The notes beneath the pieces are model-generated. The model was not told the origin of the DNA. It saw only the letters and a list, made by a program, of their open reading frames with translations, and ran no database searches. Of a stretch of DNA of 64,000 nt, positions 2,760-18,523 are shown in pieces (position 1 is the first letter of the stretch; each line of letters starts with the position of its first letter). Source of the DNA: Clostridia bacterium (GTDB lineage: Bacteria; Bacillota; Clostridia; Oscillospirales; CAG-272); contig JAFVYN010000034.1 in NCBI GenBank assembly GCA_017508605.1, forward strand, positions 47 to 64,046. The letters run 5' to 3'. The position numbers and the translations under genes were made by a program.

Positions 2760-5645
2760 ATGACAAACAGCACGCATCATAAAAAAGGGGGTCTTGGCAA
2801 AAAGACCGTCTACAATTACAAAAGCACGCCGACATACGGCATGGATCTCTCGCTGCTTCATCGCCAGGGAACGGGAGAGAAGCTTGCGTGCCTTGATAAT
2901 CTCTACCGTGACAAGACCGCGCAGAGAGAGGCTGTCGAGACCTTTCCCGGCTACCGCAGGCTCATGAAGACCCTGAGCCGCAAGGAAGACAGCGTCAACG
3001 GTCTCTTTTGCCACGAATTTGACGGCGTGGGCTATCTCTTTGTTCACGTCGGGCACTATCTTTACTGCTTTCGCCATGACAAGCGGGATCTTGAAGAGCT
3101 GCTCCCCACCCTCAGCTACGTGGAGGATCGCCCCTCACGGGGTGTATCTCTCGGCAATATCTTTTACTTTTTCGATGGCAGCCGTATCCTTCGCTTCACA
3201 TCACCCGACAGCTTTTCTCCCTGGGGTGATGAAGACTATACCGAGGAGATGGAGGAGCTTCGTGAGTTCCCGAAGACCGATGCTTACGTTCCCCTGCTGT
3301 CAAACAACGGCGAAACGAAAGAGGAAAGAAACCTTCTCACCAATTACTACCGTGTCGAAGATATGACAGGGGAGCATAACCGTGTTTATGACGATTTCGG
3401 GCTTACCGTCCGCATGATCACCGAAGGGGAAAGCCCCTCGCTTGAGGTAACAGGCTGTACGGGGGATCGCCGTATTCTGTATATTCCGAACACCATGCGC
3501 TATCGCGGTAAGACCTTGCCTGTTACCGCCATCGCTTCGGGCGCGTTCCGGGGCATGGAAATGGAGTGGGCGATCGTTTCGGAAAACGTCAAAAGGATCG
3601 GCTCGTCAGAGGACACCCTCGGCGCTTTCGAGAGCTGTCCGAATCTGAAAAACGTCTATCTTTACGGCGCCGAGGTGCTTCACAACAATACCTTTGCCCT
3701 TTGTTCCGCTCTCACCGAGCTTGTGATCCCCGCAAGTCTTACCCTCGTTGCCGCCAACGCCTTTTACGGCACGTCCTCGCTGAAGCGCGTGTATTACGAA
3801 GGCTCGGGAACGTTGCCTTACACCTTCGGCAGTGATATCGCCCTCTATCCGAACACCTCTCTTGGCACGCTTTCGGTGGGTGAGGATCTCCGCATCGCCA
3901 TCGATCCCGATAAATACCAGACGGTATATCGCATGCGGGAATCGACGGACGGTGTTATGAGCGCCTTCACACGCTTCGGCGGTTGGGAATCGGGGGTGTA
4001 CGGCGATGCCGTCGGCTATGCCGCCGTTGCCAGAAAGCCCTGCTGTCTTTACGGCATCTGCTTTGATTCCCATCTGCAGGACATTCCCAACCGTTACGGC
4101 TTTTTCACAGTCGTCGGAGAGGGCGAATTCATCACCCCGAGCGAAGACCCCTTCACCACCTACCGCATCCCGATACCCGACCGATGCCGCTCGCTTGTCT
4201 CTCTGGAGATCGGCGAGACTGACGCCTCCTACACCGTTGAATTTGCCGACGGCGAGAGTCCCTCGCGCGTTCAGTCCCTTCTTGTTCACCTTCCCGCGCC
4301 GCGTGAGGTTTCGGTTTCAGTCACGGCATACGGCTATCCCGCCCGCTCGGAGGCTGTTCTTCGCCACCACCCGTCCTTCAGCACCGATATGATGAGTGCC
4401 CTGCGTGGGGCTGACTGTGCCGCCGTGTATAACGGCGAGCTGTATCTTTCTTCGCCCGCCCTGCCCTCCCTTGTCTTTTACAGCGAAAGACCGAAGGAGG
4501 ATCCCACCGCCGATCACAGCTTTTTCGCAAACGGAGTCCTCTACGTGGGCGAGGGAACAGTCAAGGGGTTTCTTCCGTTATCGGACGGACTTGCCGTTCT
4601 GAAGGACAGCGGCATTGCCATCGTCAGAGATCACACGCTGATCTCTGAGATCGCAGGGATCTCGGCGGTCGGGGAGAGCACCGTTTATCATGACAGACGC
4701 TTTCTCCTTCTCAAGGACGGCGTATATGAGCTGAAGGAAGCAAGAGAGTACGCGTATCAGAACCTCACAAAGCTCTCTTCCCCGATAGACGCGGGAGTGA
4801 CAAGCTATGAAAACGGAAGATTTGCCCTCTGGGAGGGTTATCTCGTACTCTTGCTCGGAAGCGTCGCTTACTTACTTGACCCCGACAGAAGCTACCGTGA
4901 AAACGGCATGACCCTTCACCCGTGGTACCGCCTCACCGATCTCGGACACACGGTAGGGGGCAGAGAGATCTTCCGTCACGTTGAAAGACTGCCCGACGGA
5001 CTGTCGGGCGAATATCACGCCCTCGGAAGACCCGACGAGGCAAAGGGCGATATCCTCACGAAAACGACGGACGGCGTATCCCTTTGCTACACCCTTCTTG
5101 ACGGCAAACAATATCTCGTCGAGGGCGAGGGCGAGATCACCGATGCCGATACTGTGCCCTTTTGCTATCCGGCATCCTATGGCGGCGTACTTTACGCGGT
5201 CGCCGAAGACGGAACACTTTTTGCCGTCAACAGCGATCAGCGCGAAAACGGGATGATCCCGAACGCCTGTTATCATTATGATAACCGCCGCATTCCCGCC
5301 CGCGCCGTTACCGAGCTTGCCGACATGGGTTGCGACTATCTCACCAAAAAAATCCTGAGAAAAAGCCTTACCGTCGACATGATCCCGCAGCCCCGCTCCA
5401 TACTGCGGCTTCTCTCGGAAGAGCCGGGCGAGGACACCGAGCCGATCGCCTATTTCTCCTTTGACTCGCTGTCATCCCCCGCGGCAACGCCCGAAGGGAT
5501 CGTGCTTTACGAAGAAGCACCCTACGATCCCCACCGCTTCTTCCGAAAAAAGCGCTATATTCTGGAGGCGGCGGGATTCCGACGCCCGATCGCGCTATGT
5601 TCTCTCGCCTTCCGCTATACCGTTCTCTCCCGCCTCATTCGGTAA
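2760..5645 (+). CDS. Large (961 aa) virion-associated protein with beta-propeller-like repeats and an internal BspA-type leucine-rich-repeat (LRR_5-like) insert; tail nozzle / receptor-binding candidate
   Basis: RBS AAGGAGGA. Residues ~235-350 (ILYIPNTMRYRGKTLPVTAIASGAFRG...VKRIGSSEDTLGAFESCPNLKNVYLYGAEVLHNNTFALCSALTELVIPASLTLVAANAFYGTSSLKRVYYEG) match the BspA-like LRR pattern. The rest has recurring blade-like strands (YLFVHVGHYLYCF, IFYFFDGSRILRF, LYLSSPALPSLVFYS, GVLYAVAEDGTLFAV). Confidence 0.5.
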   Translation: MTNSTHHKKGGLGKKTVYNYKSTPTYGMDLSLLHRQGTGEKLACLDNLYRDKTAQREAVETFPGYRRLMKTLSRKEDSVNGLFCHEFDGVGYLFVHVGHYLYCFRHDKRDLEELLPTLSYVEDRPSRGVSLGNIFYFFDGSRILRFTSPDSFSPWGDEDYTEEMEELREFPKTDAYVPLLSNNGETKEERNLLTNYYRVEDMTGEHNRVYDDFGLTVRMITEGESPSLEVTGCTGDRRILYIPNTMRYRGKTLPVTAIASGAFRGMEMEWAIVSENVKRIGSSEDTLGAFESCPNLKNVYLYGAEVLHNNTFALCSALTELVIPASLTLVAANAFYGTSSLKRVYYEGSGTLPYTFGSDIALYPNTSLGTLSVGEDLRIAIDPDKYQTVYRMRESTDGVMSAFTRFGGWESGVYGDAVGYAAVARKPCCLYGICFDSHLQDIPNRYGFFTVVGEGEFITPSEDPFTTYRIPIPDRCRSLVSLEIGETDASYTVEFADGESPSRVQSLLVHLPAPREVSVSVTAYGYPARSEAVLRHHPSFSTDMMSALRGADCAAVYNGELYLSSPALPSLVFYSERPKEDPTADHSFFANGVLYVGEGTVKGFLPLSDGLAVLKDSGIAIVRDHTLISEIAGISAVGESTVYHDRRFLLLKDGVYELKEAREYAYQNLTKLSSPIDAGVTSYENGRFALWEGYLVLLLGSVAYLLDPDRSYRENGMTLHPWYRLTDLGHTVGGREIFRHVERLPDGLSGEYHALGRPDEAKGDILTKTTDGVSLCYTLLDGKQYLVEGEGEITDADTVPFCYPASYGGVLYAVAEDGTLFAVNSDQRENGMIPNACYHYDNRRIPARAVTELADMGCDYLTKKILRKSLTVDMIPQPRSILRLLSEEPGEDTEPIAYFSFDSLSSPAATPEGIVLYEEAPYDPHRFFRKKRYILEAAGFRRPIALCSLAFRYTVLSRLIR

Positions 5646-8107: not shown

Positions 8108-10264
8108 TTATTGTTGTTTGGGGGCTTTCATCGTCAGCGAGATGCGTTTTCTCTTGACGTCAACGTCCATGACCCAGACGGTCACGATATCGCCGACCTT
8201 GACGACCTCGGAGGCTTCCTTGACAAAGCGGTTGGAAAGCTGGGAAATGTGAACAAGACCGTCCTCGTGAACGCCGATATCCACAAACGCGCCAAAGGAG
8301 GTCACGTTTCTGACCGTACCCTTGAGCTGCATACCGGGCTTCAGATCCTCAAGGGACATGACGTCGGTTCTCAGCATGGGAGCGGGAAGCTCATCACGGG
8401 GGTCACGGCCGGGGCGCTTCAGCTCGTTTATGATATCATGAAGGGTGGGAACACCTACCGAAAGCTCTTCGGCAAGCTTAGTCTCACCAATGCCTGCCAC
8501 CCGCTCACCGATGTCCTGAAGACGGCGGCTCTTCACGTCGTCATCGGTATAGCCGAGAGCGGCAAGAAGCTTCTTTGCGACATCATAGCTTTCGGGGTGA
8601 ACGGAGGTATTGTCAAAGAGATTTTTACCCTCGGGAATACGAAGGAAGCCTGCGCACTGCTGATATGCCTTCGGTCCGAGCTTCGGCACCTTGAGAAGCT
8701 GGCTTCTCATCGTGAAGGCACCGTTATCCGAACGGTAGGTCACAATGTTCTTGGCAATGCCGGCATTGATGCCCGATACTCTCGCGAGAAGCTGTACCGA
8801 GGCGGTATTGAGGTCAACGCCCACGTTGTTGACGCAGTCCTCGACAACGCCGTTCAGCGCCGAGGAAAGCTCAGCCTCGGGCATATCGTGCTGATACTGA
8901 CCAATGCCGATCGCCTTGGGGTCGATCTTGACAAGCTCGGCAAGGGGATCCTGCAGACGGCGTGCGATCGAAACGGCGGAACGGAGGGATACGTCATAAT
9001 CGGGAAATTCTTCGGCGGCAAGCTTGGAGGCGGAATATACCGAAGCACCTGCCTCGCTGACGACCATGTAAGCGACCTTGCGGTCGATCTCGCGGATGAC
9101 CTCGGCGGCAAAGACCTCGGTCTCATGGGAAGCTGTGCCGTTACCGATGGCGATCACATCGACCTTGTGCTTGGCAATCAGCCCCTTGACGGTAGCCTTC
9201 GCCTGTGCCACACGCTTGAATTCGGGAACGGGGAAGATAACGCCGGTATCCAGCACCTTGCCGGTCGCGTCGACAACAGCCACCTTACAGCCGGTACGGT
9301 AGCCGGGGTCAAGACCGAGCGTGACCTTGCCCTTGACGGGCGCTTGCATCAGAAGATTGCGGAGATTAAGCGAGAAGACCTTCATGGCGCTTTCGCAAGC
9401 GGCATCGGTCAGAGTGTTGCGGATCTCACGCTCGATTGAGGGGAAAATGAGGCGGTCATACGCATCGTTGGCGGCGGCGATGACGGCATCGGTACAGGGA
9501 GAGCCCTCCTTGACGTGGCAGGAGAAGACGATCTTCATTGCTTTCGCGCGGTCAAATACCACCGATACCTTGAGCTTGCCCTCCTTCTCGCCGCGGTTGA
9601 CGGCAAGCACACGGTGGGAAGCGATCTTGTCGGTTCTTTCGGAGAAGTCAGCGTAGGTCGCATAAACGCCTACGTCCTCCTCGGTTGCCTTGGCGGTGAT
9701 CTCGCCGTTCATCAGGCATACGTAACGAAGACGCTTTCTCAGCTCAGCATCGTCCGAGATCATCTCGGCAATGATGTCAGATGCACCCTGAAGGGCTTCT
9801 TCCACCGTGGTAACGCCAAGCTCCTCGTTGATATAGTCGGGCGCCATTTCTTCGGGGGTCTTCGATTTCTTTTCCTGCGCGTAGATGGCAATTGCCAGAG
9901 GCTCCAGCCCCTTTGCCTTTGCCACCGAGGCACGGGTCTTTCTCTTGGGGCGGTAAGGACGGTAAATATCCTCGATCTCGGTCAGCGTTTCAGCCGCATC
10001 GAGAGCGGTCGAGATCTCCTCGGTCAGCTTACCCTGTTCTTCGATGGCAGCACGCACCTTTTCGCGCTGTTCATCGAGATTGCGTAAATATGTCAAACGG
10101 TCGGAAAGCGCGCGAAGCACCTGGTCGTCCAGCGTGCCGTGTGCCTCCTTACGGTAACGGGCAATAAACGGAATGGTGTTGCCGTCGTCGATCAGGCTGA
10201 CGGCAGCTTCGACCTGCCATTCCCCGATCCCAAGCTCTTCGGCAATTTTTGCGATAATATTCAT
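8108..10264 (-). CDS. tex: Tex-like transcription accessory protein (YqgF/HhH/S1 domains)
   Basis: The N-terminus MNIIAKIAEELGIGEWQVEAAVSLIDDGNTIPFIARYRKE is a textbook Tex start, and the C-terminus has an S1 domain (GTVRNVTSFGAFVDIG). The ATG at 10264 has GAAAGG ~10 nt upstream; the track start at 10285 lacks an RBS. Confidence 0.93.
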   Translation of the reverse strand: MNIIAKIAEELGIGEWQVEAAVSLIDDGNTIPFIARYRKEAHGTLDDQVLRALSDRLTYLRNLDEQREKVRAAIEEQGKLTEEISTALDAAETLTEIEDIYRPYRPKRKTRASVAKAKGLEPLAIAIYAQEKKSKTPEEMAPDYINEELGVTTVEEALQGASDIIAEMISDDAELRKRLRYVCLMNGEITAKATEEDVGVYATYADFSERTDKIASHRVLAVNRGEKEGKLKVSVVFDRAKAMKIVFSCHVKEGSPCTDAVIAAANDAYDRLIFPSIEREIRNTLTDAACESAMKVFSLNLRNLLMQAPVKGKVTLGLDPGYRTGCKVAVVDATGKVLDTGVIFPVPEFKRVAQAKATVKGLIAKHKVDVIAIGNGTASHETEVFAAEVIREIDRKVAYMVVSEAGASVYSASKLAAEEFPDYDVSLRSAVSIARRLQDPLAELVKIDPKAIGIGQYQHDMPEAELSSALNGVVEDCVNNVGVDLNTASVQLLARVSGINAGIAKNIVTYRSDNGAFTMRSQLLKVPKLGPKAYQQCAGFLRIPEGKNLFDNTSVHPESYDVAKKLLAALGYTDDDVKSRRLQDIGERVAGIGETKLAEELSVGVPTLHDIINELKRPGRDPRDELPAPMLRTDVMSLEDLKPGMQLKGTVRNVTSFGAFVDIGVHEDGLVHISQLSNRFVKEASEVVKVGDIVTVWVMDVDVKRKRISLTMKAPKQQ

Positions 10265-10305
10265 TGTGATCAGTACCTTTCGCATGATGATTTCTTAACA
10301 GTATC

Positions 10306-10334
10306 ATTATACCAATTCTGATAGGGAAAATCAA
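10306..10334 (-). promoter_or_regulatory. Sigma-A-type promoter for tex (TTGATT-17-TATAAT)
   Basis: Reverse strand reads TTGATT (10334-10329), a 17-nt spacer, then TATAAT (10311-10306). Confidence 0.5.
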
Positions 10335-10377
10335 GTGTTTTGACAAGAAAAAACAGCGTTGCATCCCAATATCCCAA

Positions 10378-10722
10378 TCAGATCATATCGAGCTTTTGGG
10401 CGATCAGCACCATGATGCGGCATTTTCTCTCATAAAACGCATTGGGGGACATCAGCATGCAAAGAGGCGACCATCCGTGACCGCGCCTTTCGGCAAGTGC
10501 CTCCAGAAATAAAAGCTTGACACGTTCACTCTCGCCCGCGCATACCGTGTCGAGTGCCTCGGTGATCGCCGTATTCAGTCTTAGATTCCGATCCAGTACC
10601 TCGGGGCGGCGTTCTCCCCGTTCGATCTCGGCGGCTCGTTTTTTGAAGCCCTGACAGATCGCCATGATCTCACGCTTCTCGTGAAGGGTGAGAAGATCTC
10701 TTGCTTGTACTTTATATGGCAT
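10378..10722 (-). CDS. Hypothetical small protein (possible regulator; not confidently recognised)
   Basis: 114 aa, divergent from the XRE/ImmA pair. The helical C-terminus (..NAFYERKCRIMVLIAQKLDMI) is vaguely like sigma region-4 / ArpU-type late regulators. Confidence 0.4.
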   Translation of the reverse strand: MPYKVQARDLLTLHEKREIMAICQGFKKRAAEIERGERRPEVLDRNLRLNTAITEALDTVCAGESERVKLLFLEALAERRGHGWSPLCMLMSPNAFYERKCRIMVLIAQKLDMI

Positions 10723-10860
10723 AGTGTTTCCTTTCTCCGATTTCGGTTACAAAGCGGCATATAGATCGGCGATTTATGAGTGGTACTCATATTATGACAG
10801 ACTTTTCTTCTATTGTCAAGAGTTTTGCTCATATTTTGTAAAAAAATTTTCAAAAACCCC

Positions 10861-10889
10861 TTGACAAACAAGAGCGATGCTCTTATACT
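10861..10889 (+). promoter_or_regulatory. Sigma-A-type promoter for the XRE/ImmA operon (TTGACA-17-TATACT)
   Basis: TTGACA at 10861-10866, a 17-nt spacer, then TATACT at 10884-10889; this lies ~45 nt upstream of the ATG at 10933. Confidence 0.6.
10870..10884. promoter_or_regulatory. Perfect 15-bp palindrome inside the promoter spacer (candidate operator)
   Basis: AAGAGC-GAT-GCTCTT lies between the -35 and -10 hexamers. Confidence 0.5.
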
Positions 10890-10932
10890 ATAGACAGAAC
10901 TCCATGTAAATCAAAGAAGGATTGGTACCGAT

Positions 10933-11394
10933 ATGACGTTTCCGAACCGCATCAGGATCATTCGAAAATCGAATACACTTTCCCAGAAGCGCTTCGCGGA
11001 GCTGTTCGGTGTCGATCAGACCGCCGTTTCCAATTGGGAAATGGGGAAAAACAACATTGATCTCGCTCTCGCCGACAGGATCGCGGACTATTTCAAGCTG
11101 CCCGTCGAATTCGTATACGGCAAGCCCTATGCGATCTCCCGCCCCTTCTCCGAGTGGTCGCAGGATGAAAAAGCCCGTTATACCGCGGCAAGCGAGGAAG
11201 AAAAGAAAATGCTCGAATTCACGCTCGGACACGGCGTGTTTGAGGGCAGCGGTGCCACGGTGCATACCAACACCCCTCCCAGCGAGCATGCCATCAAAAT
11301 TGCCCTGTTCGGCGGTGAAGACGAGGTTACCGACGATATGTGGCAGGAGGTAAAGAACTTCGTCGCCTTTATCAAACAGAAAAAGGATCAGTGA
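10933..11394 (+). CDS. XRE-family HTH transcriptional regulator
   Basis: The N-terminus IRIIRKSNTLSQKRFAELFGVDQTAVSNWEMGKNNIDLALADRIADYF is a canonical Cro/C1 HTH. Confidence 0.85.
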   Translation: MTFPNRIRIIRKSNTLSQKRFAELFGVDQTAVSNWEMGKNNIDLALADRIADYFKLPVEFVYGKPYAISRPFSEWSQDEKARYTAASEEEKKMLEFTLGHGVFEGSGATVHTNTPPSEHAIKIALFGGEDEVTDDMWQEVKNFVAFIKQKKDQ

Positions 11395-11401
11395 ACCCAC
11401 C

Positions 11402-11806
11402 TTGACATTACTTGAAAGACTGTACGAACAAGCCGAAAGCGAAGGGATCGCCGTCACACGCTTTTCCCTTCCCGCGACCGCTTCCGCCGCCGTTTTCATC
11501 GACGGACGGTATTACATCGGCATTGACCCCTCACGCTTCGAGACGCGCATGGAGGAGGCGGAATGCCTCGCTCACGAGATCGGCCACTGCAGGACCGACG
11601 CGCTGTACTCCCTCGGGGAGACACGGCGCAAAAAGAGTGAAAAGCGCGCTGACGAATGGGCGATCCTTACGCTCATTCCCCCGAAACGCTTCCGTGAAGC
11701 GATCAGAAGCGGTTGCCGTGAGGTGTGGGAATTTGCCGAGGAGCTTGGCACAAGCTATGCCTTTGCGGAAAAAGTCGTCACTTACTATCTGAACCAACGC
11801 CCGTGA
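11402..11806 (+). CDS. ImmA/IrrE-family zinc metallopeptidase
   Basis: Contains the HEXXH motif (LAHEIGHCRT). It lies immediately downstream of an XRE gene, the classic ImmR/ImmA-like pairing. TTG start. Confidence 0.8.
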   Translation: MTLLERLYEQAESEGIAVTRFSLPATASAAVFIDGRYYIGIDPSRFETRMEEAECLAHEIGHCRTDALYSLGETRRKKSEKRADEWAILTLIPPKRFREAIRSGCREVWEFAEELGTSYAFAEKVVTYYLNQRP

Positions 11807-11849
11807 AACACGGCACGATCATTTCACTATTTTAAAAGGAGAATCTCCC

Positions 11850-12996: not shown

Positions 12997-14730
12997 ATGA
13001 AACGCAGAGCATTCTTATCCTTATTTCTGATCCTCCCCATGCTGCTCACGCTTACCGCCTGTATCGGGCAGGGAGGACTTTCTGCTCCCGAACAGCTCAG
13101 ACTGACAAACGAGACCCACCTCAAGTGGAATTCCGTCGGAGGCGCCGAGCGGTATGCCATTCTGATCGACGGCTATGAAGAAGCAACGACCGACAAAACC
13201 GAATTCGATCTCGGCAGTCTTTCCCTGAATGCGGGACAAAGCTACACCGTCAGCGTCAAAGCCCTCGGGAACGGCACTCTTGCCGATTCTCCCGCCTCTC
13301 AGAGTCTGACCTATACGCATAAAAAGACAAGCACCGATACCCCCGAGCCGCCCTCAACAAGCGCGGACAATCCCTCAACAGAAACACCCGAAGGCTCTCT
13401 TCCCGTCCTCAATTCCCATGACGGCTTCTTTTATATCGCCCATCCGAGCGATACGATCAAAATCGAATACGCCTTCACGGATAACGAGTATCGGTATTAT
13501 TATTTCTATCTCGGCTATCTTGAAAACTTTCCCCTTGTTTACTCGCCTTCTCAGTATATCATACCGAACGGCACAAGCATCACCTTTTCCAAATCCATGC
13601 ATGTCGAAAGCATCGACTCCATTGAGGAAGCCGTCAGCGACAGCGTCAGTGTCACCGAAGCCCAAAGTACGTCCTGGAGTAAAGAGCTTGGTGTCAAATT
13701 CGCTTTTGAGGGCGTAAAAATCTTCAAAGCAAAGGCAGATGTCGAGGTAGAAGCCAAGACCGGTGTCACCGACTCCTGGGAGGATTCCGAAACCAGATCG
13801 CACACCCTGACGCATACCGTTGCCAAAAGCATGGCAAACGGCATCACCGAGACCGTTTCGCAGACCTTTGATGCCAACGCATCCAAAGGTCATTACCGCT
13901 ACGTGCGATATGCCAAGCGCTGTGATGTATATGTTCTCACCGTACATGACCCCAAAACCAACGATTATGGTTGGACCTACGTCACCTTTGCCGATGACAG
14001 CGTCAAGAACATGGGCGAAACCATTGAGTTCAGTACCGAAGGTACCTTCTCTTCCGACCGAGAAAATCAGCTCCGCTATGATGAAGACAAATGTCTTTCT
14101 TGCATCGACCCCAAACAGACGCTTCCCTACCGTTCAACAGGCACACCCTCCGAAACGTATGCGCCGATCTCCATTCCGATGACCTCGGTGCTTTGCGCCG
14201 AAAATAAGGATTACGATCCCAATCAGACGTATAACAACGATTATAAGAATAACGGCGCATATGATCACGGAAGCTATACCGTCGGTACGTTTGTTCTGTA
14301 CGGATGCTCGCAGAACGAAGACGGCAGCCTCAAGATCGTGGATCCCGACAAGTTCAAGATCGAATTTGTCTTTGATCAAGACCCCACCCGCCTGCCCAAC
14401 GAAAAGAACAACGAGCTTTACGTCACCTCCGATACCGCCAAAAACGTGTTTGATACCGATATCCGCAACGGCGACGAGATCGGAAAAGGCGCGTACTATA
14501 TCGTGATCAAGCTGAAGAACGGCTCTTCCCTCGCACCCATCACCGGTCTGAACTTTATGGATAACAAGACCAAAGGCTCCGTTATCACCATTCTTGACAG
14601 CTTCAACCTCGACACTCAGGAGATCGCCTCGATCAGGATCGTTGCCGTCTATGAGCTTCAGTACTATGCCGGTTGGTTTGACCACCACTTCACCAATTGG
14701 AGATTCGACCGTACCGTCACCTTCCAATAA
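12997..14730 (+). CDS. Secreted lipoprotein: Fn3-like N-domain, Pro/Thr/Ser linker, then a large beta-rich domain of unknown function
   Basis: Signal peptide with lipobox (MKRRAFLSLFLILPMLLTLTAC). The Fn3-like segment reads LKWNSVGGAERYAILIDG...YTVSVKALG. The central Ser/Thr-rich alternating segment is SVTEAQSTSWSKELGVKFAFEGVKIFKAKADVEVEAKTGVTDSWEDSETRSHTLTHTV. Confidence 0.7.
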   Translation: MKRRAFLSLFLILPMLLTLTACIGQGGLSAPEQLRLTNETHLKWNSVGGAERYAILIDGYEEATTDKTEFDLGSLSLNAGQSYTVSVKALGNGTLADSPASQSLTYTHKKTSTDTPEPPSTSADNPSTETPEGSLPVLNSHDGFFYIAHPSDTIKIEYAFTDNEYRYYYFYLGYLENFPLVYSPSQYIIPNGTSITFSKSMHVESIDSIEEAVSDSVSVTEAQSTSWSKELGVKFAFEGVKIFKAKADVEVEAKTGVTDSWEDSETRSHTLTHTVAKSMANGITETVSQTFDANASKGHYRYVRYAKRCDVYVLTVHDPKTNDYGWTYVTFADDSVKNMGETIEFSTEGTFSSDRENQLRYDEDKCLSCIDPKQTLPYRSTGTPSETYAPISIPMTSVLCAENKDYDPNQTYNNDYKNNGAYDHGSYTVGTFVLYGCSQNEDGSLKIVDPDKFKIEFVFDQDPTRLPNEKNNELYVTSDTAKNVFDTDIRNGDEIGKGAYYIVIKLKNGSSLAPITGLNFMDNKTKGSVITILDSFNLDTQEIASIRIVAVYELQYYAGWFDHHFTNWRFDRTVTFQ

Positions 14731-14802
14731 AAGCCCCCAACGCATAAACGTTTTTCATATATCATGCTTTATCAAACGCACATGAAGTCATAGGAGTTTT
14801 TT

Positions 14803-15924
14803 ATGCCATTAACTGCTTATACCGGCCATAAACCGTATATTTTCATCAGTTATGCCCACAAAGATAGCAGCACGGTATTACCGATTATAGAATCATTGAT
14901 CGATTCCGGCTTTCGGGTTTGGTACGATGCCGGAATTGAAGCCGGCACCGAGTGGCCGGAATATATCGCGACAAAATTAGCACAAAGTTCCCGCGTTATT
15001 GTTTTCGTTTCAAAAGCCGCACTTGATTCACAAAACTGCCGTCGAGAAATCAATTATGCTATTTCTCAGAAAAAGGAGATCATCTCCATATACCTTGAAG
15101 ATATTGAACTGTCGAGAGGCATGTCTATGCAGCTCGGCACAACGCAAGGAATGTATTTTTACCGCTCTCCTTGGGAAACTTTTATGAACGAGTTGATTTC
15201 TGCTCCGATCCTGACAGTATGCCGAGAAAAAAACAAAACTGTTATCGCCAAAGCTCCCATAAATACTAAGCGAAGAACCCATGTCATCCCGTTTTTCGCT
15301 ATCGTTATCACAATTTCCCTGTTACTCGTTGGTTTGGGGATTGGACTTTACCCATCGTTAGTCCCTGCCACATCGACTGCTTCGACCTCGTCCGATATAC
15401 CTTCCATTACCTCTCGTACTCCCACGCCCTCAACAACGGTATCCCCCTCGACAACAGTTCCTCCCTCAACAACGGTATCTCCCTCGACAACAGTTCCTCC
15501 GTCAACCGATTCCCCCACCACGCCGGAAAAACCTGCCAGCGTAGGATTGGAATTCAAATTAACGGATAACGAATACCATGTTATCGGCATTGGTACTTGT
15601 ACAGACACTGATATTGTAATTCCCGATACCTATTTAGGAACGCCCGTAACTGTTATCGAGGCTTATGCTTTTGATAATTGCTCCTTCCTCACGTCTGTTA
15701 CGCTTCCCGATACCATAACAACGATCGGTCATTCCGCATTCATATTCTGCGAAAACCTTACAAGTATCATCATTCCTGATAGTGTCACGACCATCGGAAG
15801 TGACGCATTTGCTACGTGTTTCAAACTTACCATTTATTGTGAAGCAGAAAGCAAGCCTGAAGGATGGCACGAGAATTGGGAACCGGGAACCCGCACCGTC
15901 ATTTGGGGCTACAAAGAACCCTGA
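14803..15924 (+). CDS. TIR-domain membrane protein: N-terminal cytoplasmic TIR, single TM helix, PSTTV repeats, C-terminal extracellular BspA-type LRR domain
   Basis: RBS AGGAG. TIR_2-like motifs are KPYIFISYAHKD, FRVWYD and RVIVFVSKAALDSQNCRREINYA. The TM helix spans aa 161-183 (VIPFFAIVITISLLLVGLGIGLY) and is preceded by KRR. The LRR_5-like repeats read IVIPDTYLGTPVTVIEAYAFDNCSFLTSVTLPDTITTIGHSAFIFCENLTSIIIPDSVTTIGSDAFATC. Confidence 0.85.
   Translation: MPLTAYTGHKPYIFISYAHKDSSTVLPIIESLIDSGFRVWYDAGIEAGTEWPEYIATKLAQSSRVIVFVSKAALDSQNCRREINYAISQKKEIISIYLEDIELSRGMSMQLGTTQGMYFYRSPWETFMNELISAPILTVCREKNKTVIAKAPINTKRRTHVIPFFAIVITISLLLVGLGIGLYPSLVPATSTASTSSDIPSITSRTPTPSTTVSPSTTVPPSTTVSPSTTVPPSTDSPTTPEKPASVGLEFKLTDNEYHVIGIGTCTDTDIVIPDTYLGTPVTVIEAYAFDNCSFLTSVTLPDTITTIGHSAFIFCENLTSIIIPDSVTTIGSDAFATCFKLTIYCEAESKPEGWHENWEPGTRTVIWGYKEP
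15427..15506 (+). repeat. In-frame 18/36-bp tandem repeats encoding PSTTV(S/P) units (extracellular stalk)
   Basis: CCCTCAACAACGGTATCYCCCTCGACAACAGTTCCTCC is repeated; the protein reads PSTTVSPSTTVPPSTTVSPSTTVPPST. Confidence 0.8.
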
Positions 15925-15997: not shown

Positions 15998-18523
15998 TCA
16001 CTTCGTTACGGCATTTCCGCTGATATTACCTACGGTGTATGCGGTTACGTTGTCGAGGGAGATGACGTACAGTGCCGATTCCGCGGGAACGGTATAGAGT
16101 GTATTGCCGAGCGTTACACGGCGGGTCAGGGTCATATCGGAGACCTTCACTTCCATCGTCTTGCCGCCGGCTGTCAGCTTAATGGGGGTATCGGTCAGTC
16201 TCGGACCGCTGACACGCTTGAGTACAACGGCGACCGTCTTGCCGTCGGTATAGACCTGAAGCGAGCCATTGTCGGTAAGAAGGGTGTTCGTGAACGCCAT
16301 TTCTTCGCCGTAGCGCACCATATAGGTCGGTGTACCGAAGCCGATGATACCGTTTTCGCAGCCGAAGAGACGCTCGTTTGCGTAGGTATTGATGAGGTAA
16401 GCCGCCTCACCTGCCGCAAAGCGCTCAGCGGTCAGCTGCATACCGTCGGTGCGGTTATACGAGCCGTTTCTCACGTAGCCCGAATAGGACTGGCTGAAGT
16501 TACCGGCATAGTAAGCCAGCGCACCGTCAGCCGTCGAGCCTTCGATCGCGGCATTCACAAAGCAGTTTGCCATGACCGTACCGTTGCCGTTACCGATCAC
16601 GCCGCCCGCGTATTTGCCGTTTACCGTCGAGTCAGAGACCGCGCACTGTGCGATCGAGAATTCCGAAGCATAGTTGGACGAGCCGCCCACAGCACCCGCG
16701 CCATCGGTTTCAGAGGTCACCGTGACCTTGCTGACGGCGATCCAGGATACCTTGGCGATCGCGCCCGAGGAGACCGTGCCGAAGAGCGCACCTGCCGCAC
16801 CCTTGGCTTCTACGGTAGCATCCGAGAGCGCAAGCTTCGTGATAGCGGCGCCCATGGTCAGCTTACCGAAGAGACCGCCGTCCTTGTCGGTCTTGATCCT
16901 GAAGCTGTGAACGGTGTGCATCGCGCCGTCGAGCTTACCGCCGAAGGGATGCGCGTCCGAGCCGATGGGAAGAAGGGTTTCATTCTTGCAGTCGATGTCA
17001 GCCGTCAGAACGAGCGATTCTCTGCCGTTCAGTCTGCCTGCCTCGAGATTTGCCTGATACCACTTCAGATTTTCAAGCGTTCCTATCTCATACACGCCGT
17101 CCTTGACGTTCGGACGGTGTGCCGAGGGCTTACCTGCCTTGACGGTCACCGTACCGCAAGCCGAACAGGTCGAGGTGATGATACCGTCAAGATAGCCGTC
17201 CGGCTGGGTCTCGGCATCGGTATAGGTATGTTTTTCTTCACTTGCCTTGGAAAGCACCTTGCCGCAGTCGAGACAGACTCTTCTGCCGCAAGCGTATTCC
17301 TTGATATTTTCGTGGATCACAACCTCGCGCGCAAGGATGGGATAGCCGTCGTTGATGCCCGTGGTATCCTCCACAAAACGGTTGCCCTCAGCCGAGGCGG
17401 GATACGCCGAAACCGTCTCAAGAAGCGCCGCCTTGTCGGCAACAAGCTTGACAGAGGCATCGGTCACTACGTTGAGAGCCGCCTTACCCGAAAGGTATGC
17501 CGCGTTCTTGACGGTTGCCTTGTCTGTCTGATGGTTCGAGAAGGCGATGGCGTAAGCGTTCGAGGCGCTTACGGTATTGACGATCTCACCGGCGTTATAT
17601 ACGTTCGTGATCTCACGCTTGCCCGTCGGGGGATCGAAGGAAGCGCCGCCCACGATACCGCAGGCAAAACCGCCGCCGCCCTTCATGGTGATCTTACCCA
17701 TGTTGTAGCAGTAATCCACCTTCAGGGTCGATTCCTTGTTTTCATGATATTCACCGACAATACCGCCGCAGCGCCAGTCGGTTGCGGTGATCGCGCCGAA
17801 GTTCACACAGCCGGTCACGGTAAGACTGCCGCTTCTGCCGCCGTTGACGTTTGCCACGATCGTGTAAAAGCCGCCCGCACTGGAGTTGCCTGCCGTAACG
17901 GTGGCGTAGTTATAGGAATTGCGGATGGTCACGTTGGCGGAGCTGTCATTGGAGAGCGCAAAGAAGCCCGCCGCGGGATTGCCCGTGATCGTGCCGTAGA
18001 CCGCGCAGTTTTCCACCGTCACGTTACCCGACTGTAAGTAAGAGGAAATGCCCGAGGTCTTGCCGTCGCCCTTGACGTTGGCGTAAACCACCACGCCGTC
18101 AAGCTTAGCGCCCGCCTTCATCGTGCCAGCGATCGCGGCGACAGAATAGCCCGAGCCCGTGGAGGAGACCGCGATCGGCGCGTCCTCGCTGCCGATGATG
18201 ATATTCTTGAGCGTTCCCGCGAACCAGTTTGCGAAAATACCCGCGTCGGAATTGGTGCCGTTGATGGTGATACCGGTCAAAGAATGACCGTTACCGTCAA
18301 GAACGCCCTTGAATTCCTTGCTGTAAAGATATTTCGTATACGAGCCGCCCGTGAAATCAATGTCATTTGCCAGATAGTATACACCCGAGGGATCCATCGC
18401 GATGAATTCCTCAACCGTCGAAACCGGGGTGCCGGCGGGAGCATCCGAAGCCATAATGCCAAATGCCGATGCTGTACAGGTCAGTAAGGTCAAGCTTAAC
18501 ATAATCGCAATCACTTTCTTCAT
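15998..18523 (-). CDS. Large secreted surface protein with GLUG-like repeats (two repeat blocks around a Cys-rich centre)
   Basis: Signal peptide MKKVIAIMLSLTLLTCTASAFG. Gly-rich motifs recur (CGGIVGEY, FACGIVGGA, GGLFGKL, GAGAVGGSS, AGGVIGNGNG). No recognisable wall-anchor motif was seen. Confidence 0.55.
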   Translation of the reverse strand: MKKVIAIMLSLTLLTCTASAFGIMASDAPAGTPVSTVEEFIAMDPSGVYYLANDIDFTGGSYTKYLYSKEFKGVLDGNGHSLTGITINGTNSDAGIFANWFAGTLKNIIIGSEDAPIAVSSTGSGYSVAAIAGTMKAGAKLDGVVVYANVKGDGKTSGISSYLQSGNVTVENCAVYGTITGNPAAGFFALSNDSSANVTIRNSYNYATVTAGNSSAGGFYTIVANVNGGRSGSLTVTGCVNFGAITATDWRCGGIVGEYHENKESTLKVDYCYNMGKITMKGGGGFACGIVGGASFDPPTGKREITNVYNAGEIVNTVSASNAYAIAFSNHQTDKATVKNAAYLSGKAALNVVTDASVKLVADKAALLETVSAYPASAEGNRFVEDTTGINDGYPILAREVVIHENIKEYACGRRVCLDCGKVLSKASEEKHTYTDAETQPDGYLDGIITSTCSACGTVTVKAGKPSAHRPNVKDGVYEIGTLENLKWYQANLEAGRLNGRESLVLTADIDCKNETLLPIGSDAHPFGGKLDGAMHTVHSFRIKTDKDGGLFGKLTMGAAITKLALSDATVEAKGAAGALFGTVSSGAIAKVSWIAVSKVTVTSETDGAGAVGGSSNYASEFSIAQCAVSDSTVNGKYAGGVIGNGNGTVMANCFVNAAIEGSTADGALAYYAGNFSQSYSGYVRNGSYNRTDGMQLTAERFAAGEAAYLINTYANERLFGCENGIIGFGTPTYMVRYGEEMAFTNTLLTDNGSLQVYTDGKTVAVVLKRVSGPRLTDTPIKLTAGGKTMEVKVSDMTLTRRVTLGNTLYTVPAESALYVISLDNVTAYTVGNISGNAVTK

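What the first reader, a model, noticed from the sequence alone, without database searches (positions are those of the whole stretch)
14803..15924. Toll-like-receptor layout in a bacterium: cytoplasmic TIR, one TM helix, extracellular BspA-type LRR
Seen in the translated sequence: aa ~10-125 carry TIR_2 hallmarks (KPYIFISYAHKD; FRVWYD; RVIVFVSKAALDSQNCRREINYA). A single hydrophobic span (aa 161-183) is preceded by KRR, which by the positive-inside rule puts the N-terminus in the cytoplasm. A PSTTV(S/P) repeat stalk and three to four LRR_5/BspA-type repeats follow, with no signal peptide. The domain order is inverted relative to animal TLRs, but the spatial arrangement is the same: LRR outside, TIR inside. 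Bacterial TIR domains are established NAD+-cleaving or signal-generating modules in Thoeris, CBASS, SPARTA and Avs systems, which sense intracellular cues. Here the only plausible sensor is extracellular. Glu82 in ..NCRREINYA.. sits where I recall TIR NADases placing the catalytic Glu (..WCxxEL..); this is inference. My hypothesis is a one-component, outside-in defence or sensing receptor in which LRR ligand binding (phage tail, competitor or host surface) drives TIR clustering and NAD+ depletion or signalling. The gene is visibly AT-richer than its neighbours, which is consistent with horizontal acquisition.
Basis: partly seen in the sequence, partly recalled or inferred. Interest (0 to 1): 0.8.

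Follow-up and report, generated by a model that had tools for sequence, protein, structure and literature searches.

The report
Membrane-anchored bacterial TIR protein with outside LRR
A gut Clostridia gene encodes a single-pass membrane protein with an enzyme-type TIR domain inside the cell and a leucine-rich-repeat domain outside, the same spatial layout as an animal Toll-like receptor; related bacteria hold other such proteins, but what it senses and does is untested.

Summary
ORF 14803..15924 (+), 373 aa, has a significant TIR_2 domain, one strong TM helix (aa 161-183) with a KRR flank on the N-terminal side, a 62-aa P/S/T stalk, and three LRR_5 repeats with caps. There is no signal peptide, so TIR-in/LRR-out is predicted. 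E82 aligns with the catalytic Glu of Cat1, a 7uxr TIR and ThsB, and is invariant in 104 clade members.

The interpretation needs correction. All 56 TIR–LRR_5 homologues among the top hits, and 21 of 21 in reference genomes, lack any TM or signal peptide. The family norm is therefore a cytoplasmic LRR_5. The TM plus stalk is an ~85-aa lineage-specific insert, seen in one species as two alleles.

The layout "TIR, one TM, ectodomain" is nevertheless common in this gut-Clostridia TIR clade (17 of 100 genes). It includes independent TIR–TM–LRR proteins (P0202, L074, L091, L093).

No defence-island context or partner gene was found, and no clade member on viral contigs. The gene is AT-rich, and its TM-stalk-LRR part carries excess nonsynonymous change.

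Best reading: an outside-in, one-component TIR receptor. The anatomy is shown; the function is inferred. It is a new variant of a known kind.

The parts
14792..14796 (+). Shine-Dalgarno-like AGGAG, 6 nt upstream of the ATG
   Evidence: Read directly from the sequence.
14803..15924 (+). Complete ORF, 373 aa plus stop: TIR - TM - P/S/T stalk - LRR_5
   Evidence: The same ORF (97% aa identity, P0001) lies in the same synteny on 23 contigs read, from several metagenomes.
14803..15237 (+). Cytoplasmic TIR domain (aa 1-145)
   Evidence: Pfam TIR_2 at 76.7 bits and ThsB_TIR at 35 bits. AF2 pLDDT above 90. Foldseek matches SARM1, SPARTA, BtpA and AbTir TIRs at E 1e-4 to 1e-5.
15046..15048 (+). Codon GAA = Glu82, candidate catalytic glutamate in the clade motif S76-x-N78-C79-R80-x-E82
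   Evidence: Aligned with the Glu of Cat1, the 7uxr TIR and ThsB. Invariant in alignments A1, A2 and A3.
15238..15282 (+). Juxtamembrane linker aa 146-160 with the positive flank (K150, K156, R157, R158)
   Evidence: 14 of 17 TM-anchored clade members have net charge of +3 or more in the 15 aa before the TM.
15283..15351 (+). Single transmembrane helix (aa 161-183; core 164-182)
   Evidence: Kyte-Doolittle 19-mer mean 2.64. Approximate Hessa dGapp -2.7 kcal/mol, against +2.6 or more in 48 TM-less homologues.
15352..15537 (+). Predicted extracytoplasmic P/S/T-rich stalk (aa 184-245, 74% P+S+T)
   Evidence: Low AF2 confidence, as expected for a disordered region.
15427..15506 (+). Tandem DNA repeat that encodes the PSTTV(S/P) units of the stalk
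   Evidence: TRF: period 36 x2.2 copies at 95% match, or period 18 x4.4 copies.
15538..15921 (+). Predicted surface-exposed BspA-type LRR_5 domain (aa 246-373): N-cap hairpin, 3 repeats (aa 271-296, 299-319, 322-342), C-cap with W..W motif
   Evidence: Pfam LRR_5 at 63 bits. AF2 pLDDT above 90. Foldseek matches TpLRR 6mlx, 4fs7, 4gt6 and 4oju. Repeat positions.

Best explanation
The gene encodes a type-II (N-in/C-out) single-pass membrane protein of a large TIR clade specific to gut Clostridia. In this clade a near-constant N-terminal, enzyme-type TIR domain is joined to highly variable binding modules.

Here an insert of about 85 aa (TM helix plus P/S/T stalk) places the LRR_5 module outside the membrane, on a stalk of roughly wall-spanning length. 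The TIR domain stays in the cytoplasm.

Proposed mechanism, all of it inferred: the LRR ectodomain binds a multivalent extracellular ligand, which could be a phage tail or receptor-binding protein, a competitor's surface, or a host or dietary polymer. Binding clusters the receptors in the membrane plane. Clustering brings the cytoplasmic TIR domains into the oligomer that TIR enzymes need to form their composite active site. Glu82-dependent cleavage or cyclisation of NAD+ follows. The result is NAD+ depletion with growth arrest or death, or production of an ADPR-derived signal.

Shown here: the domains, their folds, the TM, the conserved Glu, the recurrence of the TIR-TM-ectodomain layout, and the solitary gene context. 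Inferred: the topology (from the positive-inside rule and the absence of a signal peptide), the enzymatic activity, ligand-driven clustering, and any defence role.
For: Domains and folds. TM helix and charge asymmetry. It is a single ORF with an RBS. The catalytic-Glu equivalent is aligned to Cat1, 7uxr and ThsB and is invariant in 104/104 aligned clade members, including the TM-anchored ones. That argues the TIR is an enzyme and not a mere scaffold.

The layout recurs. Nine of 131 50%-cluster representatives and 17 of 100 genes in reference genomes are TIR - 1 TM - C-terminal region. Their ectodomains include DUF6273, RCC1, PepSY, DUF285+LRR_5 (P0202) and canonical LRR_4/LRR_8 (L074, L091, L093). 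The TM sequences are not visibly homologous, so they probably arose more than once.

There is no partner gene, so a one-component mode is required. Single-gene TIR(+TM/TPR) systems of E. coli are experimentally antiphage and depend on the TIR active site (PMC11350192). Solved TIR enzymes are active as oligomers or filaments: the SPARTA tetramer, and AbTir, Cat1 and SpbK filaments.

The clade shows paralogue arrays and variable repeat modules, as immune-receptor families do. Excess nonsynonymous change falls on the TM-stalk-LRR part while the TIR is conserved: nd:sd is 12:3 against 23:50 in neighbouring genes, Fisher p=0.0009.
Against: No experiment exists for any clade member. The TIR-TM-LRR_5 combination is seen in one species only, as two alleles. 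Its closest relatives keep the LRR_5 in the cytoplasm, so the ectodomain's ligand-binding role may be new or absent.

The gene and its relatives do not sit in defence islands and have no conserved neighbours. PADLOC gives only weak, TIR-part hits. No clade member was found on viral contigs.

pN/pS of about 1.3 outside the TIR, from only 15 differences, fits relaxed constraint equally well. Topology was not computed with a dedicated predictor. The Trp often found 4 residues before the catalytic Glu (Cat1, AbTir) is Asn78 here; ThsB also lacks that Trp.
Confidence: 0.4

Rival explanations
1. It is a surface adhesin with a cytoplasmic anchoring or clustering domain. The LRR_5 ectodomain is the functional part, binding host, mucus or other cells as BspA-type proteins do. 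The TIR only tethers or oligomerises the protein on the inner face, with no signalling or enzymatic output.
For: LRR_5 proteins in these genomes are mostly secreted or surface proteins: 62 LRR-only hits, most with signal peptides. The flanking genes encode a lipoprotein and a large secreted protein. The context is non-defence. The query's LRR is as similar to secreted LRR_5 proteins (57% identity) as to the LRR of TIR-LRR_5 relatives.
Against: The catalytic Glu and the S-x-N-C-R-x-E motif are invariant across 104 clade members whatever the C-terminal module. A passive anchor would not be expected to keep them. Most relatives combine the same TIR with cytoplasmic repeat modules such as Sel1, TPR and LRR_5, and those cannot be adhesins.
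Confidence: 0.2
2. It is a recent chimeric gene under relaxed constraint. An insertion or recombination put a TM and stalk into a horizontally acquired cytoplasmic TIR-LRR_5 gene. The product is non-functional, mislocalised or decaying, and the TLR-like layout is an accident.
For: The combination is unique to one species. GC is 7.8 points below the window, while clade genes elsewhere show no such deficit. nd:sd is 12:3, with 11 of 12 replacements outside the TIR. The nearest relative, P0002, goes straight from the conserved Cys140 region to the same 'PASVGLEF' LRR start without the ~85-aa insert.
Against: The ORF is intact with a good RBS in both alleles and on all 23 contigs read, from several metagenomes. 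The TIR part is under purifying selection, with 1 replacement in 145 codons. The TM keeps its hydrophobicity and positive flank in both alleles. The same layout exists in at least 17 other clade genes with different ectodomains, so it is viable and recurrent.
Confidence: 0.2
3. It is a non-immune outside-in signalling receptor. The mechanics are the same (ectodomain ligand leading to TIR activation), but the output is a regulatory ADPR-derived nucleotide. That signal would control physiology such as adhesion, sporulation or nutrient response, and not cell suicide or phage defence.
For: The gene is embedded in the chromosome among housekeeping genes, with a stable syntenic position. There are many paralogues per genome with diverse ligand-binding modules, as in sensory families. 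TIR enzymes are known to make signalling nucleotides: ThsB, and the AbTir-3AD structure.
Against: No candidate receiver protein (SLOG, Macro, SIR2 or STALD type) is conserved nearby. No such non-immune TIR pathway is established in bacteria, to my knowledge.
Confidence: 0.15
4. The topology is reversed, or the protein is a host-directed TIR effector. Either the TIR is outside or released (Tcp/Btp-like interference with host TLR signalling) and the LRR stays inside as in its relatives, or the protein is exported whole.
For: LRR_5 is cytoplasmic in all TM-less relatives. BtpA is among the structural matches. The organism lives in an animal gut.
Against: There is no signal peptide, and a folded N-terminal domain of about 160 aa precedes the TM. 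Net charge is +4 on the N-terminal flank and 0 on the C-terminal flank. The P/S/T stalk follows the TM. The same charge pattern occurs in 14 of 17 TM-anchored relatives.
Confidence: 0.05

Closest known systems
Animal Toll / Toll-like receptors
   Same: The spatial layout is the same: LRR ectodomain, one TM helix, cytoplasmic TIR. Activation by ligand-induced ectodomain dimerisation or clustering is the obvious mechanistic analogy.
   Different: The order is inverted: N-terminal TIR, type-II signal-anchor, no signal peptide. The LRR is BspA-type LRR_5 with only 3 repeats and no LRRNT/LRRCT caps. The TIR matches bacterial TIR_2/ThsB profiles (76.7 and 35 bits) but the metazoan/plant TIR profile PF01582 only at 16.9 bits, below its cut-off. 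It keeps an enzyme-type Glu, and no adaptor proteins are present. This is convergence, not homology of the whole receptor.
Thoeris ThsB (TIR sensor/cyclase)
   Same: The ThsB_TIR profile hit is above its cut-off. The catalytic Glu aligns. The TIR is the N-terminal or enzymatic module.
   Different: No ThsA-type effector is found next to the gene or next to any of 28 relatives' loci. PADLOC ThsB hits are weak, at 22 bits or less. ThsB is cytoplasmic and has no TM or LRR.
Single-gene TIR defence proteins: SpbK of B. subtilis ICEBs1, and E. coli TIR, TIR-TM and TIR-TPR systems
   Same: They are one-protein systems in which a TIR with an active-site Glu is the effector and the rest of the protein senses the trigger. 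SpbK forms filaments (9phb; bioRxiv 10.1101/2020.12.13.422588). The E. coli single-gene TIR(+TM/TPR) systems are antiphage and depend on the TIR active site (PMC11350192).
   Different: Those sensors act in the cytoplasm on phage proteins. None is described with an extracytoplasmic LRR. PMC11350192 states explicitly that the TM and LRR features of TLRs seem absent from bacterial TIR systems. SpbK is on a mobile element, whereas this gene is chromosomal and syntenic.
BspA / TpLRR-type LRR_5 surface proteins of gut and oral bacteria
   Same: The LRR_5 profile and fold match (6mlx, 4fs7, 4gt6, 4oju). The domain is predicted to be exposed outside the membrane.
   Different: Those proteins use an N-terminal signal peptide or lipobox and have no cytoplasmic domain. 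Here the anchor is an internal TM that follows a cytoplasmic TIR.
SARM1 and plant TIR-NLR / TIR-only proteins (TIR NADases)
   Same: The TIR fold matches (SARM1 gives the top TIR hits). The catalytic Glu is conserved. Activity depends on oligomerisation (established knowledge). A TIR combined with repeat-type sensor modules is shared with plant TNLs.
   Different: There is no NB-ARC/STAND or ARM/SAM regulatory module, the proteins are soluble, and sensing is intracellular.

Membership tests
TIR domain superfamily (Pfam TIR_2, PF13676) | Profile match above the curated cut-off | tested here: met
   76.7 bits against a cut-off of 28, E=2.8e-21.
TIR domain superfamily (Pfam TIR_2, PF13676) | Flavodoxin-like alpha/beta TIR fold | tested here: met
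   AF2 pLDDT above 90 over aa 1-145. Foldseek probability 1.00 to SARM1, SPARTA, BtpA, AbTir, MyD88 and TLR15 TIRs.
Enzymatic (NAD+-cleaving or cyclising) TIRs | Conserved catalytic Glu at the alphaC position | tested here: met
   E82 aligns to the Glu of Cat1, 7uxr and ThsB. It is invariant in 50/50, 16/16 and 38/38 relatives.
Enzymatic (NAD+-cleaving or cyclising) TIRs | Measured NADase or cyclase activity that depends on the Glu and on self-association | not testable with these tools
   Needs biochemistry.
BspA-type LRR (Pfam LRR_5, PF13306) | Profile match above the cut-off, and an LRR_5 solenoid fold | tested here: met
   63 bits against a cut-off of 27.7. Top Foldseek hits are 6mlx, 4fs7, 4gt6 and 4oju. 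Three repeats are delimited.
Single-pass type-II membrane protein (N-in/C-out) | One insertion-competent hydrophobic helix, no N-terminal signal peptide, positive-inside charge bias | tested here: met
   Kyte-Doolittle 2.64, approximate dGapp -2.7 kcal/mol, +4 upstream and 0 downstream. No dedicated topology predictor or experiment was available.
Animal Toll-like receptor family | Spatial layout: LRR outside, one TM, TIR inside | tested here: met
   The topology is inferred.
Animal Toll-like receptor family | Type-I order (signal peptide, N-terminal canonical LRRs with LRRNT/CT caps, C-terminal TIR), and a TIR of the metazoan type (PF01582) | tested here: not met
   The order is inverted and there is no signal peptide. 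The LRR is LRR_5. PF01582 scores 16.9 bits, below its 21.3 cut-off. The nearest TIRs are all bacterial.
Thoeris system | ThsB-type TIR gene next to a ThsA-type effector (SIR2/SLOG or Macro/TM) | tested here: not met
   The ThsB_TIR domain is present (35 bits). No ThsA-like neighbour is found in the window or in 28 related loci.
CBASS / Pycsar / type III CRISPR TIR effectors | Adjacent cyclase or CRISPR signal generator, and a nucleotide-sensing domain (SAVED/CARF/STING) fused to the TIR | tested here: not met
   No such domains are found in the protein or in its neighbours.
Defence-island-encoded antiphage genes (guilt by association) | Recurrent proximity to known defence genes or mobile elements | tested here: not met
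   133 neighbour ORFs give only 3 generic Ser/Thr-kinase PADLOC hits; the rest are housekeeping genes. No clade member is on IMG/VR contigs.
Clostridial TIR-LRR_5 family (uncharacterised; annotated 'TIR domain-containing' or 'leucine-rich repeat protein') | N-terminal clade-type TIR (xYEGxxPYIFISYAHKD ... S-x-NCR-x-E ... L-x-x-C) followed by LRR_5 | tested here: met
   45-71% TIR identity to 58 TIR-LRR_5 proteins.
Clostridial TIR-LRR_5 family (uncharacterised; annotated 'TIR domain-containing' or 'leucine-rich repeat protein') | Soluble linker between TIR and LRR_5 (the family norm: whole protein cytoplasmic) | tested here: not met
   Only the query and P0001 carry a TM plus stalk. 56 of 58, and 21 of 21, do not.

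The most novel reading that the evidence does not exclude
Gut Clostridia possess a true class of transmembrane TIR receptors: a constant cytoplasmic enzyme-type TIR, one TM, and an interchangeable ectodomain (LRR_5, canonical LRR, DUF6273, RCC1, PepSY). These would convert binding of an extracellular ligand, such as an adsorbing phage or a competitor cell, into cytoplasmic NAD+ cleavage or ADPR-nucleotide signalling. That would be a convergent prokaryotic counterpart of Toll-like receptors. It would also be the first outside-in, one-component immune or conflict sensor in bacteria.
Probability: 0.25. Interest if true: 0.85.

Novelty: new variant of a known kind. Interest (0 to 1): 0.6.

Why it matters
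Known bacterial TIR systems (Thoeris, CBASS, Pycsar, SPARTA, Cat1, SpbK, retron-TIR) sense cues inside the cell. A 2024 survey states that the TM and LRR features of TLRs seem absent from bacterial TIR systems (PMC11350192).

This gene, together with the wider "TIR - 1 TM - ectodomain" subset found here (about 17% of a clade with roughly 20,000 50%-identity clusters), shows the layout does exist in bacteria and probably arose more than once. If these proteins signal from outside to inside, several things follow:
- Bacterial immunity or cell-cell conflict would include surface surveillance.
- The TLR layout would be an example of convergent evolution from a shared TIR enzyme module.
- These small proteins would be tractable models for how ectodomain clustering switches on a TIR enzyme.

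If they do not signal, the clade is still an uncharacterised, highly expanded family in ruminant and other animal gut Clostridia.

Tried and rejected
1. Two-gene or internal-start explanation (a TIR gene plus a separate secreted LRR gene whose signal peptide is the 'TM'). Rejected: the frame is continuous, and no in-frame ATG/GTG/TTG or RBS lies between M128/L131 and the TM.
2. TIR-TM-LRR_5 as a conserved family architecture. Rejected.
3. Defence-island or partner-gene association. Looked for in the window, in 5 annotated contigs and in 133 neighbour ORFs; not found.
4. Phage-borne origin. No clade member on IMG/VR contigs.
5. Intermediate-divergence orthologues of the TM form, wanted for a proper dN/dS and TM-conservation test. 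None found in the metagenome scan. Only two alleles are available, so the selection test rests on 15 substitutions.
6. Homology between the query's TM or juxtamembrane segment and those of other TIR-1TM proteins. Not visible by eye; independent origin is likely but unproven.
7. Origin of the LRR module (from a secreted LRR_5 protein or from a TIR-LRR_5 relative). Inconclusive: about 57% identity to both.
8. Sequence search of the PDB with the TIR alone gives only marginal E-values (0.003-0.65). The domain call rests on Pfam and the fold.
9. Promoter and terminator scans around the gene were no better than shuffles, so operon structure with the upstream 577-aa lipoprotein gene is undecided.
10. 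Six literature searches and two papers read found no description of a bacterial TIR-TM-LRR protein. Subscription-only papers, such as Spear et al. 2009 on microbial TIR architectures, could not be read.
Full report
Yes. The ORF lies at 14803..15924 (+) and encodes 373 aa. An AGGAG sits 6 nt upstream of the ATG. Pfam gives:
- TIR_2, aa 13-103, 76.7 bits against a cut-off of 28, E=2.8e-21
- ThsB_TIR, 35 bits against 21.2
- LRR_5, aa 282-343, 63 bits against 27.7, E=3.4e-17 (all)

An AlphaFold2 model built on 50 homologues has pLDDT above 90 for aa 1-145 and 245-365. Foldseek against the PDB matches the N-terminal domain to SARM1, SPARTA TIR-APAZ, BtpA, AbTir, MyD88 and Cat1 TIRs. It matches the C-terminal domain to TpLRR (6mlx), BACOVA_04585 (4fs7), an F. 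prausnitzii surface LRR (4gt6) and 4oju.

Between the two domains lies one strongly hydrophobic segment. Its Kyte-Doolittle 19-mer mean is 2.64 at aa 164-182. Its approximate Hessa dGapp is -2.7 kcal/mol (scale values taken from my memory of Hessa et al. 2005). The flank before it is ..KAPINTKRRTH. (+4). The segment after it carries no positive charge and opens a 62-aa stretch that is 74% P/S/T. That stretch is encoded partly by a 36-nt x2.2 tandem repeat at 15427..15506. The LRR part has an N-cap hairpin, three LRR_5 units (aa 271-296, 299-319, 322-342) and a W..W C-cap. No in-frame start codon lies between M128/L131 and the TM, so this is one protein and not a TIR gene followed by a secreted LRR gene.

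**2. Topology**
Topology is inferred, not measured. There is no N-terminal signal peptide, a folded domain of about 160 aa precedes the only TM, the charge bias is +4/0, and a P/S/T stalk follows. Together these predict N-in/C-out: TIR in the cytoplasm, LRR outside. The same charge bias (+3 or more upstream, about 0 to +1 downstream) is present in 14 of 17 other TM-anchored members of the clade.

**3. The catalytic glutamate**
phmmer against PDB sequences aligns E82 (..DSQNCRREINYA..) with the Glu of Cat1 (..SDWCWDELE..), of a 7uxr TIR (..KNWTEYELN..) and of ThsB (..NSKALREEIDY..). E82 is invariant in 50/50 TIR-LRR_5 homologues, along with S16, Y17, W40, D42, S76 and C79. It is also invariant in 16/16 TIR-1TM-X and 38/38 soluble TIR-X relatives. 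The Trp that often sits four residues before the Glu is Asn78 here, and ThsB also lacks that Trp. Enzyme activity itself cannot be tested here.

**4. What the homologues show: the main correction**
The word-indexed search returned 2375 hits. Of the best 120, 58 carry the same N-terminal TIR (45-71% identity) and a C-terminal LRR_5. Only the query and P0001 (97% identical, same species) have a TM. In the other 56 the most hydrophobic 19-mer scores 1.83 or less on Kyte-Doolittle and lies inside TIR or LRR strands. The N-terminus is the TIR itself. The linker is a soluble P/A/Q/K-rich stretch, a zinc ribbon or a TPR-like piece. On the Hessa scale all 48 tested are +2.6 kcal/mol or more.

In species-representative genomes, 21 of 21 TIR-LRR_5 genes lack a TM. 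The same species also carries three tandem TM-less TIR-LRR_5 paralogues at another locus (L005). The nearest relative, P0002 (71% TIR identity), runs from the conserved L-x-x-C140 end of the TIR almost directly into the same 'PASVGLEF' start of the LRR domain. So the TM plus stalk of the query is an insert of about 85 aa. In this family LRR_5 is normally a cytoplasmic module, and 'BspA-type' does not imply 'extracellular'.

**5. The layout is not a one-off at clade level**
An exhaustive HMMER search with aa 1-190 found 19,994 50%-identity clusters at E of 1e-3 or better, and 873 at 1e-30 or better. Among 131 new representatives, 36 have TM segments. Nine have exactly TIR (aa ~1-145), one TM (aa ~165-228) and a long C-terminal region.

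Among 100 TIR ORFs extracted from 82 loci, almost all from reference genomes:

| Architecture | Count |
|---|---|
| TIR - soluble X | 41 |
| TIR - LRR_5 | 21 |
| TIR - 1 TM (16 of them followed by a domain X) | 17 |
| TIR - 2 to 4 TM | 12 |
| TIR only | 9 |

The soluble X is mostly Sel1 (18 of 38) or TPR, with some FtsK/SpoIIIE ATPase, MORN and DUF6273. The regions beyond the TM contain DUF6273, RCC1, PepSY, and LRRs:
- P0202: DUF285+LRR_5
- L074: LRR_4/LRR_8, 124 bits
- L091 and L093: LRR_4, 116 and 100 bits
- L073: weak LRR_4

The TM segments are not visibly homologous to one another. 'TIR inside, TM, LRR outside' has therefore probably arisen several times in gut Clostridia. All loci come from Oscillospiraceae, Acutalibacteraceae, Faecousia, Ruminococcaceae, Lachnospiraceae or unclassified Clostridia MAGs of ruminant and other animal guts, often with several loci per genome.

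**6. Context**
In the window the order is: HTH, Tex, HTH_3/ImmA-like pair, URO-D-like methyltransferase, a 577-aa lipoprotein (no Pfam), the TIR gene, then convergently an 841-aa secreted protein (no Pfam), a glycoside hydrolase, AraC, CotJABC and an Opp ABC transporter. The P0001 allele has the same synteny on 23 contigs read, from several metagenomes.

TM-less relatives sit between housekeeping genes such as pnp/rpsO, rsmE, yicC, recJ and tRNA synthetases. Pooling 133 neighbour ORFs of 28 loci, PADLOC finds only three generic Ser/Thr kinases, and Pfam finds no recurrent partner. No clade member lies on IMG/VR viral contigs. The genes are thus solitary or in arrays of TIR paralogues. They are not in defence islands and have no ThsA-like effector. 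Any function must be one-component.

**7. Population signals**
Only two alleles are known. They differ at 15 nt, 12 of them nonsynonymous. Eleven of the 12 replacements fall outside the TIR, in the flank, TM, stalk and LRR. The nonsynonymous:synonymous ratio is 12:3, against 23:50 summed over three flanking genes in the same strain pair (Fisher p=0.0009). That means either diversifying selection or relaxed constraint on the outside part, with purifying selection on the TIR. The numbers are small.

The gene has 45.5% GC (TIR part 42.8%, LRR part 43.9%) against 53.3% for the window. Across 100 clade genes in other genomes the mean difference from their loci is only -0.9 points. The AT-richness is real and specific to this gene, which fits acquisition from a lower-GC relative. 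No mobile-element gene is adjacent.

**8. Most likely mechanism**
I commit to an outside-in, one-component TIR receptor. The LRR ectodomain, held on a P/S/T stalk long enough to reach into or through the wall, binds a multivalent ligand. Lateral clustering then brings the cytoplasmic TIRs together. As in the solved TIR enzymes, which are active only as oligomers or filaments (SPARTA tetramers and AbTir, Cat1 and SpbK filaments; also established knowledge for SARM1 and plant TIRs), this would assemble the Glu82 active site. NAD+ would then be cleaved or cyclised.

Single-gene TIR(+TM/TPR) proteins of E. coli are experimentally antiphage and depend on the TIR active site (PMC11350192). SpbK is a one-gene TIR abortive-infection protein of a Firmicute. 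These make a conflict or defence role the leading guess, but context gives it no support.

My confidence by step:
- Architecture: about 0.95
- Topology: about 0.85
- Catalytically competent TIR: about 0.65
- Ligand-driven outside-in activation: about 0.4
- Specifically anti-phage: about 0.2-0.25

Rivals, detailed in their own section, are an adhesin with a passive TIR anchor, a recent chimeric gene under relaxed constraint, a non-immune signalling receptor, and a reversed topology or host-directed effector.

**9. Comparison with known systems**
The protein works like a Toll-like receptor in layout only. Membership fails on domain order, LRR type and TIR subtype; PF01582 scores below its cut-off. 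It is not Thoeris, CBASS, Pycsar, SPARTA or Cat1, because no partner or nucleotide-sensing domain is present. It is a member of an uncharacterised clostridial TIR-LRR_5 family but departs from that family's soluble norm. In six searches and two papers read I found no description of a bacterial TIR-TM-LRR protein. PMC11350192 says the TM and LRR features of TLRs seem absent from bacterial TIR systems. Toshchakov and Neuwald note only that prokaryotic TIR groups have mixed architectures and were not reviewed (PMC7075850). Older subscription-only surveys could not be read.

**10. Verdict**

Novelty: a new variant of a known kind, namely bacterial enzyme-type TIR proteins with modular sensor domains, here anchored in the membrane with the sensor outside.

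Interest is 0.6. The layout is unexpected for bacterial TIR proteins, recurs across a large gut clade, and gives a small, testable model for outside-in TIR activation. Everything functional, however, is inference, and the exact TIR-TM-LRR_5 combination is confined to one species.

Noticed in passing
window 37065..39254 (+): A second TIR protein in the same window. It is 729 aa, with TIR_2 at aa 164-259 (42 bits) followed by Sel1/TPR repeats. Its TIR is only about 26% identical to the query's. The first ~150 aa look like a further degenerate TIR-like unit (by eye). TIR-Sel1/TPR is the commonest soluble architecture of the clade.
   Followed up: partly
L005 8001..12589 (contig Ga0307249_10000127, same species as P0001): Three tandem TM-less TIR-LRR_5 paralogues (563, 371 and 526 aa) lie between pnp and a TetR gene. 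The species thus holds both cytoplasmic and membrane-anchored forms.
   Followed up: partly
P0121, P0124, P0140, P0182 (representative proteins): Proteins with 2-7 tandem copies of this TIR in one chain. One example is P0182, with 7 TIR_2 stretches (Pfam), a TM and WD40. Such pre-linked TIR arrays are unusual and were not examined further.
   Followed up: no
A3 members (L0xx loci): Four of 38 soluble clade members fuse the TIR to an FtsK/SpoIIIE-type ATPase (with FtsK_alpha and gamma domains). Twelve of 100 clade genes are TIR followed by 2-4 TM helices with no ectodomain.
   Followed up: no
window 25423..27426 (-): An OppC-type ABC permease with an RCC1-like beta-propeller inserted between the OppC_N helix and the BPD_transp_1 core. 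This is an unusual permease architecture.
   Followed up: no
window 35621..36787 (-): A CobW/G3E-like GTPase (P-loop recognised by eye; Pfam not run) with 5-6 tandem HHHHHEDGEECGCG units in the middle. It is probably a metal-binding metallochaperone repeat.
   Followed up: no
window 12997..14730 (+) and 15998..18523 (-): The two genes flanking the TIR gene encode a 577-aa lipoprotein (lipobox LTAC) and an 841-aa signal-peptide protein. Neither has a Pfam match; the second shows only weak ZmpD similarity. The 577-aa gene ends 72 bp before the TIR gene on the same strand, so co-transcription is possible but was not established.
   Followed up: partly
window 10933..11808 (+) and GC trough 10250..11250: An HTH_3 gene followed by an M78/ImmA-like peptidase gene (annotation taken from syntenic L001) lies in a lower-GC patch (0.45-0.50). 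Such pairs are typical of mobile-element immunity modules. No integrase was seen nearby.
   Followed up: no
window 2760..5645 (+): A 961-aa protein with an LRR_5 region (39.7 bits). It is another BspA-type LRR protein in the same window and is unrelated to the TIR gene by position.
   Followed up: no
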